Source: Eledone cirrhosa (lineage: Eukaryota). From it: DNA of 64,000 nucleotides. This document shows, in pieces, positions 4,589 to 20,669 of the stretch. Each line of letters opens with the position of its first letter. Position 1 is the stretch's first letter. A program made the position numbers and the translations under genes. Location of the stretch: the NCBI GenBank assembly GCA_964016885.1, contig OZ024758.1, forward strand, positions 24,924,001 to 24,988,000. The letters run 5' to 3'. The notes under the pieces are model-generated. The model worked only from the letters and a program-made list of their open reading frames with translations. It did not search any database and was not told where the DNA came from.

Positions 4589-4815
4589 TTAATCTAAGCT
4601 TTTATATTTTATTTATAATCTATTCTATGTCTAGTGTCATTGCTGAGTTGTGATGACATCTTTGATGACTATCTTCAGGTGTAATATATAGAACAGGTGA
4701 GCATGTTGGTAATCACCTCTCTAAACTATAAATATAACGCACTTTATTTTACAGTGTAAAACTCTGTTGCACCTTACATTGGCGAGTTTTCTCTAACTTC
4801 ATATATATAAGTTTA

Positions 4816-4945
4816 TCCCGGGTTCAATCGGGGGTAACCACAGTAACTAAAGTACCCAAGGGATAGCAAAGTATAAATATTTAACAAAGCCCTGATGATT
4901 TCCTCCGAATGAAACAGTTCTAGTCCTGTAGAAGTCATTTCTATA
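4816..4945. mobile_element. (TA)n-flanked hammerhead element, family H1 (3' end on - strand, hammerhead core on + strand at 4892-4936)
   Basis: CTGATGA-tttcctccgaat-GAAACAG-ttctagtc-CTGTA; the terminus is shared with 5561-5607, 9118-9173 and 20421-20482. Confidence 0.75.
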
Positions 4946-5476: not shown

Positions 5477-5607
5477 GGTTTCCTGATGATTTCTCCCGAA
5501 TGAAACAGTTCTAGTGCCTTAGAAGCCATTTCTATAATAAATATTTATACTCTGCTATGTATTGAGTACTTTACTTACTGTGATTACCCCCGATTGAACT
5601 CGGGATA
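5477..5607 (+). mobile_element. Hammerhead element, family H1 (hammerhead 5477-5527 plus 3' terminus)
   Basis: Stem I ggtttc/gaagcc, CTGATGA, ttc-tccc-gaa, GAAAC; stem III damaged; AATAAA; TGAGTACT; then (TA)n. Confidence 0.7.
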
Positions 5608-5636
5608 CACATATATATACATATATATATATACAT

Positions 5637-6218: not shown

Positions 6219-6410
6219 CGAAAGAAATGTGGTAAGGAACCAGGTGGACCATAACGCACCAAAGTACTCAATTACTTAGGGTAGTAGAGTGGGTAATAGG
6301 AACGAGTAGGACCCCGACGGCTGAGCTCAAGCCGTTTCGACGGCTAATTCTGGACATCCAGAATTAGCCGTCGAAACGGCTTGAACTCAGCCGTCGGGGT
6401 CCTACTCGTT

Positions 6411-6415
<5 letters not shown>
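6217..6415 (-). mobile_element. (TA)n-flanked foldback element, family H2
   Basis: Inverted arms of about 59 bp (6296-6354 and 6357-6415); contains GAAAC-ggct...agcc-GTC, a hammerhead 3' half. Other copies at 9643-9806, 22460-22587 and 44111-44296. Confidence 0.8.
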
Positions 6416-7141: not shown

Positions 7142-7603
7142 AAAGTTATATTTAAATTGTTGGGTTAACAACGAGTAAATATTTATAACTGATATAAAAG
7201 CACTCAACAAGTATTTGGAGTATATTTATGATATTAAATAAATGGAAACTATATTTATAAAACCATATTTATTTCGTTATATATATTTCAGGGATATCAT
7301 ATTAACAATATGTTATGCCTTCTTCAGACAAAATACAATATAAACAGTTTTATAGATAAATAGATACGACATACCTTTCAATCACCTTGCATTTGGGAGG
7401 TTGATTTGGCAGATTGATTACTGCCAAATCAACCTCCCAAATGCAAGGTGATTGAAAGGTATGTCGTATCTATTTATTTATAAGACTGTTTATATTGTAT
7501 TTTGTCTGAAGAAGGCATAACATATTGTTAATATGATATCCCTGAAATATATATAACGAAATAAATATGGTTTTATAAATATAGTTTCCATTTATTTAAT
7601 ATC

Positions 7604-7605
<2 letters not shown>
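7140..7605 (-). mobile_element. Foldback hammerhead element, family H3, with arms of about 185 bp
   Basis: 7228-7412 and 7421-7605 are inverted copies around an 8-nt spacer; flanked by (TA)n; hammerhead motif on both strands. Confidence 0.85.
7498..7563 (+). ncRNA. Type I hammerhead ribozyme motif (mirror copy on - strand at 7270-7335)
   Basis: Stem I tattttgt/acgaaata (8 bp); CTGAAGA at 7506; stem II closed by agg/cct; GAAAT-atat-ATA. Confidence 0.78.
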
Positions 7606-7634
<29 letters not shown>

Positions 7635-8005: not shown

Positions 8006-8483
8006 TGATATTAAATAAATGGAAACTATATTTATAAAACCATATTTATTTTATTATATATATTTCAAGGGTAGCAACATTTTGGTACGCCCTCATCAGA
8101 TAAAATACAAAATTTGTTTTATAAATGGTGACATATCCAAGAAACCAGACCTTATCGGTTCAGGTTCAGTTTGGATATCTATCCAAACTGATATCTATCC
8201 AAACTGATATCTATCCAAACTGATAGATATCCAAACTGAACCGATAAGGTCTGGTTTCTTGGATATGTCACCATTTATAAAACAAATTTTGTATTTTATC
8301 TGATGAGGGCGTGCCAAAATTTTGGTACCCTTGAAATACATATAATAAAATAAATATGGTTTTTATAAATATAGTTTCCATTTATTTGATATTATGATAT
8401 TATACTCCAGAAAACTTGTAGAGTGATTCGAATCTGTTATAAATAAATTTGTTGAATAACCAACAAATTAAATATCTCTTATG

Positions 8484-8983: not shown

Positions 8984-9173
8984 GTTTTAATATAGATGAG
9001 ATTCTACAGGACTAGAACTGTTTCATTCTTTAGAAATCATCAGGAATCTTTCTAAAGAATTAAACAGTTCTAGTCCTGTAGAATCTCATCTATATTAAAA
9101 CGTTTATTCTCTGCATCGTATTGAATACCTTACTTACTGTGGTTACCTCCGACTCAACCCGGAATAACGTACC
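8984..9173. mobile_element. Foldback hammerhead element, family H1
   Basis: Inverted arms at about 8984-9023 and 9062-9101; H1 3' terminus at 9118-9173; (TA)n flanks. Confidence 0.8.
8999..9049 (-). ncRNA. Complete type I hammerhead ribozyme motif
   Basis: The - strand reads agattc-CTGATGA-tttctaaagaat-GAAACAG-ttctagtc-CTGTA-gaatct: 6-bp stem I, stem III ACAG/CTGT, GUA triplet. Confidence 0.82.
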
Positions 9174-9645: not shown

Positions 9646-9806
9646 AACAAGTAGGACCCCGACGGCTGAGCTCAAGCCGTTTCGACGGCTAATTCTGGAC
9701 TCTGTCGTCGGGGTCCTACTTGTTCCTATTACCCACTCTACTACCATAAGTATTGAGTACTTTGGTGCGTTATGGCCCATCTGGTTCCTTACCACATTTC
9801 CTTCGT
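9643..9806 (+). mobile_element. Family H2 element, rearranged foldback
   Basis: Matches 6217-6415 in opposite orientation; TATTGAGTACT at 9751. Confidence 0.8.
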
Positions 9807-20420: not shown

Positions 20421-20614
20421 GTAGGTCCCGGGTTGAGTCGGGGATAACCACAGTAAGTAAGGTACTCAATACATGGCAGAGTAAAATTTTTTTATTTTAT
20501 AGAAGGAACTTCTACAGGACTAATACTGTTTCATTCAGATGAAATCTTCAGGAAGCACCTGAAGATTTCATCTGAATGAAACAGTACTAGTCCTGTAGAA
20601 GTTCCTTCTATAAA

Positions 20615-20620
<6 letters not shown>
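20421..20620 (-). mobile_element. Foldback hammerhead element, family H1, with cores on both strands
   Basis: Arms of about 62 bp around a 5-nt spacer. The - strand reads gcttc-CTGAAGA-tttcatctgaat-GAAACAG-tattagtc-CTGTA-gaagt (20508-20556); + core at 20559-20597. Confidence 0.82.

Positions 20621-20669
<49 letters not shown>

What the first reader, a model, noticed from the sequence alone, without database searches (positions are those of the whole stretch)
8999..9049. Family H1 hammerhead shows compensatory stem I changes and an unusual U-U at the base of stem II
Seen: stem I is agattc/gaatct (8999-), gcttc/gaagt (20508-) and ggtttc/gaagcc (5477+). Stem II keeps ttc/gaa while its loop varies (taaa, atct, tccc, ctcc at 4892). 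Stem III is ACAG/CTGT with a GUA triplet in three of the four loci and damaged at 5477. All copies have U opposite U at 10.1/11.1, where canonical hammerheads have a purine-pyrimidine pair. Inference: RNA structure was under selection in the source elements, and this may be a variant fold able to act as a monomer.
Basis: partly seen in the sequence, partly recalled or inferred. Interest (0 to 1): 0.75.

Follow-up and report, generated by a model that had tools for sequence, protein, structure and literature searches.

The report
Penelope retrotransposon hammerhead with U-U mismatch
This is one of about 27,000 broken copies of a hammerhead self-cutting RNA motif from a young family of a known kind of animal jumping gene; its odd U-U pair is common in that group, and the motif likely trims the very start of the element's RNA, though cutting has not been tested.

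Summary
Observation confirmed; the reading is partly supported. H1 is a type I hammerhead in the terminal repeat of a young Hydra-clade Penelope-like retroelement: 26,985 exact core matches, and H1 brackets intact 713-aa RT/GIY-YIG ORFs about 1.3% apart. Stem I covaries at two pairs; stems II and III do not. U10.1-U11.1 is fixed (96.5%) but not unusual for the clade: 14 of 25 families in a published supplement and 19 of 44 hammerheads beside related ORFs in metagenomes have it, and it swaps with purine-pyrimidine pairs at least five times on the RT tree. A natural U-U was reported in 2011. What sets H1 apart is a 16-nt stem-loop III, the only one predicted stable as a monomer hairpin, though it pairs as a dimer too, and a TATA box 29-31 nt before stem I, which would put the ribozyme at the transcript start. 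The window copies are truncated; the one at 8999 is locked in a 53-bp inverted repeat and the proposed construct misfolds. The scan earlier noted a sister family with a C-C mismatch in this genome. Cleavage is untested.

The parts
8999..9049 (-). Type I hammerhead H1 (loop II UAAA subfamily), stems I-III intact, predicted cut between 9005 and 9004
9036..9036 (-). U10.1, the position that is G and binds the active-site metal in most hammerheads
9025..9025 (-). U11.1
9006..9021 (-). 16-nt stem-loop III (A15.1 to U16.1), 4 bp with an 8-nt loop holding a CUAG palindrome
8984..8998 (-). Short 3' end of the terminal repeat (about +21 from the cut), running into (TA)n
9049..9173 (+). Inverted, 5'-truncated second copy: lacks C3-A9, has U at G12, ends with the long (+89) tail; 9049-9101 pairs with 8984-9036
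20508..20557 (-). H1 copy, loop II AUCU subfamily, 5 bp of stem I left; tail runs to about 20428
20553..20624 (+). Inverted arm with a full core but no stem I 5' strand (67-bp inverted repeat with 20486-20552)
5477..5619 (+). H1 copy, loop II UCCC subfamily, stem III and triplet damaged, with long tail
4886..4945 (+). H1 copy, loop II CUCC subfamily, stem I 5' strand lost; preceded by an inverted tail at 4802-4883

Best explanation
H1 is the type I hammerhead in the terminal repeat of a young Hydra-clade Penelope-like retroelement, and it likely works as a slow, assisted self-cleaver that would cut about 45 nt after a predicted TATA-driven start, releasing an uncapped RNA with a 136-nt leader and the RT/endonuclease ORF. 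Shown: the fold, two covarying stem I pairs, H1 on both sides of intact 713-aa ORFs, a TATA box 29-31 nt before stem I, insertion into (TA)n, inverted 5'-truncated arms and two 3' ends about 68 nt apart. Inferred: U10.1-U11.1 is a tolerated alternative to G-C that stacks like a pair and probably offers O4 in place of guanine N7 near the active-site metal, at some cost in rate; folding probably needs the element's protein or a second copy, with the longer stem III allowing either monomer or dimer. The window copies are dead truncated ends that decay neutrally.
For: Element link: of 20 long-ORF loci, 15 have H1 just upstream and 18 have it 2.4-5.2 kb downstream. ORF motifs RWR, DKT, YRDD, CxCX5C, CxxC and CxH fit the Hydra definition. 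15 ORFs differ by 1.3% on average (105 pairs); cut-to-ATG is 136 nt in 15 of 15; TATA lies at -30/-31 in 13 of 15 and at -29 to -31 in 46 of 60 copies of other subfamilies chosen without a TATA criterion. Structure: 96% of 845 cells paired; pairs A-U/C-G and A-U/G-C change on both sides. U.U: 26,985 of 27,969 copies; 19 of 44 hammerheads beside related ORFs, with no other mismatch seen; 6 changes on the RT tree, at least 5 forced by starred branches. PMC3088659 reports a natural U-U and cites it as the most active mismatch. G10.1 N7 is a metal ligand and its loss costs about 30-fold (PMC6961537 passages). A Penelope-type hammerhead cut only with its protein (PMC11167929); others cut weakly as dimers (PMC4209133). 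3' ends at +21 (27 of 83) and +89 (17 of 83) fit the tail signature.
Against: No cleavage, start-site or expression data. The hammerhead fold is never the predicted minimum-energy fold (0.3 to 3.4 kcal/mol above it in minimal constructs; stem II pair probability at most 0.19). Only two pairs covary, about 2-3 events on a noisy tree, and the count of such pairs does not beat the shuffle (434 of 500). No compensated stem II subfamily was found (8 and 64 double changes genome-wide). D. virilis Penelope has a TATA-less internal promoter (PMC2377424 abstract), and the anole ribozyme was not needed for insertion in vitro. A TATA at the same spacing is not general among the metagenome relatives (7 of 40 at 37-46 nt before the core). 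An out-of-frame AUG lies 35 nt into the leader. A sister family in this genome has C or A at 10.1.
Confidence: 0.6

Rival explanations
1. H1 cuts efficiently as a stand-alone monomer, having escaped the dimer requirement of its relatives by lengthening stem-loop III.
For: Its 16-nt stem III hairpin is -1.4 kcal/mol, against +1.3 to +6.0 for 42 of 43 relatives of 4-10 nt (one cannot form a hairpin). The loop's self-complementarity is not above chance: 105 of 840 permuted loops and 867 of 3000 random loops give as stable a duplex. For the youngest subfamily the hammerhead fold is only 0.3 kcal/mol above the minimum.
Against: Stem II is 3 bp on a U.U base; loop II varies freely (30 loop sequences in 221 copies), which argues against a fixed loop I-loop II contact needed for fast cutting; loop III is nearly invariant (150 plus 34 of 221) and its one subfamily change strengthens the self-duplex to -15.2.
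Confidence: 0.25
2. H1 acts only as a dimer between the two terminal repeats of a read-through transcript, cutting out unit-length (possibly circular) RNA; the TATA box is incidental.
For: Intact elements carry two sense copies 4.7-6.3 kb apart; this is the published model for metazoan Penelope hammerheads (PMC4209133; PMC6765202 passages); the self-duplex is as stable as in relatives.
Against: TATA spacing stays at 29-31 nt across subfamilies whose spacer sequence and length differ; the two copies are kilobases apart.
Confidence: 0.3
3. The motif is kept as a protein-binding or priming structure and no longer cuts at a useful rate; U.U is a sign of lost catalysis.
For: Ribozyme mutants did not impair insertion in vitro and no RNA ends mapped to the cut in the anole element; loss of G10.1 N7 lowers the rate.
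Against: All catalytic core positions and the triplet are kept across subfamilies (GUA 202, GUU 7 of 221) and across elements about 40% identical in protein; U.U interconverts repeatedly with G-C, G.U and A-U without core decay.
Confidence: 0.12

Closest known systems
Hydra-clade C-terminal EN+ Penelope-like elements and their hammerheads (Craig et al. 2021, PMC8557442; section 11, passages, File S1 sheet 3 and File S2 read)
   Same: RWK-like and DKT motifs, CxCX5C linker, CxxC and CxH, (TA)n targets, inverted 5'-truncated arms, type I hammerhead; U opposite U at the stem II base in 14 of 25 tabulated families (my count; the U's are entered in the core columns and the motifs are called canonical); ACAG/CUGU stem III as in the Nematostella and Saccoglossus rows.
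   Different: Published consensuses are mostly under 3 kb, whereas this unit is 4.7-6.3 kb with a microsatellite-filled 3' region; stem III closes an 8-nt loop rather than 1-3 nt; stem II has 3 bp; a TATA box precedes stem I.
Natural U10.1-U11.1 hammerhead (Perreault et al. 2011, PMC3088659; section 8 and passages read)
   Same: Same mismatch at the same positions; said there to be the most active mispair, citing Ruffner et al. 1990 (not seen).
   Different: Treated there as a rare variant and normally filtered out of searches; here it is fixed in about 27,000 copies and is the commonest state in the clade sample.
Minimal Penelope hammerheads (Cervera and de la Pena 2014, PMC4209133, parts 1-2 of 4 read; Lunse et al., RNA Biol 14:1499, title only, not held)
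   Same: Type I motif in both terminal repeats, palindromic stem III region, many divergent subfamilies per genome, mostly solo truncated copies.
   Different: Their consensus has G10.1-C11.1, an extra base after A9, a long stem II and little or no stem III; H1 has none of these.
Anolis Poseidon PAc hammerhead (Frangieh et al. 2024, PMC11167929, parts 1-2 of 4 read)
   Same: Ribozyme at the repeat-ORF junction; two 3' ends that define a tail.
   Different: Other clade; its ORF starts inside the ribozyme, whereas here the ATG is 136 nt past the predicted cut.

Membership tests
Type I hammerhead ribozyme | Core C3-U4-G5-A6-N7-G8-A9, G12-A13-A14, A15.1-U16.1, H17 | tested here: met
Type I hammerhead ribozyme | Three stems with stem I open-ended, supported by covariation | tested here: met
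   Two stem I pairs covary within H1; stems II and III are invariant within H1 but replaced with pairing kept across relatives
Type I hammerhead ribozyme | Purine-pyrimidine pair at 10.1-11.1 (consensus, not obligatory) | tested here: not met
   U.U in 26,985 of 27,969; precedent in PMC3088659
Type I hammerhead ribozyme | Match to an Rfam hammerhead model | tested here: not met
   No hammerhead among 130 window hits at E<=1; none on H1 in 3 loci, nor on 2 relatives including a G-C one, at E<=10, so the miss is not due to U.U alone
Type I hammerhead ribozyme | Stem I-loop II tertiary contact | tested here: inconclusive
   Loop II varies freely; no contact identified
Type I hammerhead ribozyme | Self-cleavage after NUH | not testable with these tools
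   No assay possible
Penelope-like element (EN+) | Single RT plus C-terminal GIY-YIG ORF between repeats that carry a hammerhead | tested here: met
   14 of 20 loci have H1 on both sides; Pfam GIY-YIG is weak (E 0.025); 1292 homologs at E<=1e-20
Penelope-like element (EN+) | 5' truncation, inverted arms, optional tail | tested here: met
   72 of 221 copies have an inverted arm within 60 nt; ends at +21 and +89; window arms
Hydra clade | RWK-like and DKT motifs, CxCX5C linker, CxxC and CxH, no CCHH | tested here: met
   Read by eye in the L156 ORF against section 11 of PMC8557442
Hydra clade | (TA)n insertion | tested here: met
   67 of 83 copies of three subfamilies run into (TA)n within 120 nt of the cut
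Hydra clade | Placement with named Hydra references in an RT tree | not tested
   The tree holds only unnamed relatives
Non-LTR retrozyme | Non-coding tandem units each with a hammerhead | tested here: not met
   H1 belongs to a coding element; copies seen are dispersed truncated ends

The most novel reading that the evidence does not exclude
Hydra-clade elements run a hammerhead without the metal-binding G10.1, having switched to and from U.U many times, and in this family the ribozyme sits exactly at a TATA-driven start, removing its own cap as a monomer so that the RT is translated cap-independently. This would give Penelope hammerheads a defined job and a natural test of the active-site metal pocket.
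Probability: 0.2. Interest if true: 0.72.

Novelty: new member of a known kind. Interest (0 to 1): 0.4.

Why it matters
What Penelope hammerheads do is still open. This family is young (intact ORFs 1.3% apart) and has a simple layout of TATA box, ribozyme, 136-nt leader and ORF, so the question can be tested directly. Position 10.1 is a metal ligand, and a clade that repeatedly swaps G-C for U.U offers natural material on how dispensable that ligand is. Searches that demand a pair at 10.1-11.1, and Rfam, miss these motifs, so genome counts of hammerheads are too low. The U-U itself is already in print.

Tried and rejected
Rfam gave no hammerhead hit on H1. I first linked H1 to the ORF upstream of L013; that ORF is another Hydra family with its own hammerhead, and 0 of 20 such loci had H1 in a regular 3' place (2 had a nearby H1 insertion), so L013 is a chimera and the link was dropped. 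Stem II covariation inside H1: 8 and 64 double changes genome-wide; 4 of 5 checked U-A closing-pair copies of one loop type have an inverted arm that still shows the C-G form, so these look post-insertional. The flank tree of 70 of 118 copies was too noisy to count events firmly. The test for excess self-complementarity of loop III was negative. No RNA holder listed. Pfam and PDB sequence searches were uninformative. Lunse et al. was not held and may already list such variants. Searches for U10.1/U11.1 returned only PMC3088659 and for Hydra/Penelope/U-U/cephalopod only PMC8557442. R-scape was not available. No covariance model was built and no reads were laid.

Full report
Observation. The motif is present as described on the - strand at 9049-8999, with further copies at 4892+, 5483+, 20551- and a fifth core at 20559+. 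The core pattern has 26,985 exact matches in the 3.0-Gb genome and 0 for the reversed control. Rfam lists no hammerhead among 130 window hits.

Anatomy in the window. All five copies are truncated ends (0 of 5 keep the normal upstream context). The copy at 9043 is one arm of a 53-bp inverted repeat and the copy at 20551 of a 67-bp one. Copies end in (TA)n at two preferred points, +21 (27 of 83) and +89 (17 of 83) from the cut, like the tail explained by two reverse-transcription starts in PMC11167929.

Parent element. My first lead, the ORF upstream of L013, was wrong: it is another family with its own hammerhead. L039 linked H1 through a microsatellite-filled 3' region to a different ORF end, whose best 150 genomic matches are 97-99% identical apart from the query itself. 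Of 20 long-ORF loci that I picked from these, 15 have H1 just upstream, 18 have it 2.4-5.2 kb downstream and 14 have both. The 713-aa protein shows RWR, DKT, YRDD, CxCX5C, a GIY-YIG-like core, CxxC and CxH, matching the Hydra clade definition; clade placement by tree against named references was not done. The 15 intact ORFs differ by 1.3% on average, so this subfamily is young.

Covariation. Among 112 of 118 copies with intact 5' context (6 left out, mainly those with an extra U in stem I), pair 4 is A-U in 58 and C-G in 44, and pair 6 is A-U in 100 and G-C in 9. On 65 distinct rows, 96% of cells pair and these two pairs change on both sides; cell-level measures beat all 500 shuffles but the pair count does not (434 of 500), and relatedness inflates the former. 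A rough post-hoc figure for four variable sites forming two complementary partner pairs is 0.003. The flank tree suggests only 2-3 events and is poorly resolved. Stem II shows no compensated subfamily. Selection in source elements is therefore supported, modestly within H1 and strongly across the clade.

The U.U. With both positions free there are 27,969 matches, 26,985 of them U.U and 522 not U at 10.1, the first 100 listed being scattered over many loop types, as decay would give. It is not peculiar to H1. PMC3088659 reports a natural U10.1-U11.1 and cites it as the most active mispair. File S2 of PMC8557442 shows it in 14 of 25 Hydra-clade families from three phyla, by my count, under the heading canonical. 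Independently, 44 of 78 metagenome loci with related ORFs held a sense hammerhead; of 44 distinct motifs 19 were U.U, 13 G-C, 5 G.U, 4 A-U and 3 had an extra base, with no other mismatch; controls gave 1 antisense hit and 0.2 per shuffle. On a quick RT tree of 39 of those loci (4 duplicates and 1 extra-base locus left out) plus two from this genome, U.U needs 6 changes, at least 5 forced by starred branches (the careful search did not finish). G10.1 N7 is a ligand of the active-site metal and its removal costs about 30-fold; cytosine is said to be the only base unable to bind metal on that edge (PMC6961537 passages). That U supplies O4 instead is my inference.

Monomer or dimer. H1's stem-loop III is 16 nt against 4-10 nt in 43 relatives, and is the only one with a negative hairpin energy (-1.4 kcal/mol); its self-duplex is -12.8 to -15.2, but not better than permuted loops (105 of 840). 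The full fold is 0.3-3.4 kcal/mol above the minimum in minimal constructs. Loop II takes 30 sequences in 221 copies while loop III is nearly fixed. Published metazoan Penelope hammerheads cut weakly as dimers or only with their protein. The question is open; assisted cutting is most likely.

A start-site lead. A TATA box lies 30-31 nt before stem I in 13 of 15 intact elements and 29-31 nt before it in 46 of 60 copies of other subfamilies selected without that criterion, though the spacer differs. By the usual TATA-to-start distance (recalled), transcription would begin at stem I, cutting would remove the cap and 45 nt, and a 136-nt leader would precede the ATG. Self-cleavage can drive cap-independent translation in viruses (PMC13725137 abstract). 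Against this, D. virilis Penelope has a TATA-less promoter (PMC2377424 abstract) and only 7 of 40 relatives have a TATA at a comparable place.

Verdict. A real, correctly read hammerhead of a known clade; the U.U is a clade trait already visible in print, though my searches found no text remarking on it for these elements. The longer stem III, the repeated switching and the TATA placement are the new, testable points. Interest 0.4. I also saw part 1 of 5 of bioRxiv 10.64898/2026.07.22.740005, which did not change the reading.

Noticed in passing
L031/L081/L082 family; hammerhead about 1.5-1.7 kb after the ORF (L134, L138, L145): A second Hydra-clade family (52,133 first-look candidates) whose hammerhead often has C at position 4, a 7-bp stem II on C.U, C.A or A.G, and a palindromic CAAUUG stem III.
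   Followed up: partly
L040:2207, L082:5544, L162: Another hammerhead family with U.U at the stem II base, AGCU/AGCU stem II and a minimal CUAG stem III; parent ORF not identified.
   Followed up: no
window 6529+, 9948-, 8718+, 22117-, 7506+/7327-, 8300+/8099-, 42356+: At least four other hammerhead-like families in the window, several in long inverted repeats (192 bp at 7221-7612; 131 bp at 8036-8363).
   Followed up: no
G000: Copies with non-U at 10.1 are skewed to one strand (383 forward, 139 reverse), unlike the family overall; possibly a tandem array.
   Followed up: no
L023, L219 (loop CUCC subfamily): Subfamily with an extra U in stem I, U.G next to the core and a GUU triplet.
   Followed up: partly
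L039, L151-L165: The element's 3' region carries 2.4-4 kb of largely TA/TG microsatellite that varies in length between copies yet is transposed with it.
   Followed up: partly
G000:C9:35496849-35497154: Three H1 cores spaced 136 nt apart, a small tandem array.
   Followed up: no
window 6296-6415: Near-perfect 59-bp GC-rich inverted repeat in (TA)n, with a related sequence near 9680-9711.
   Followed up: no
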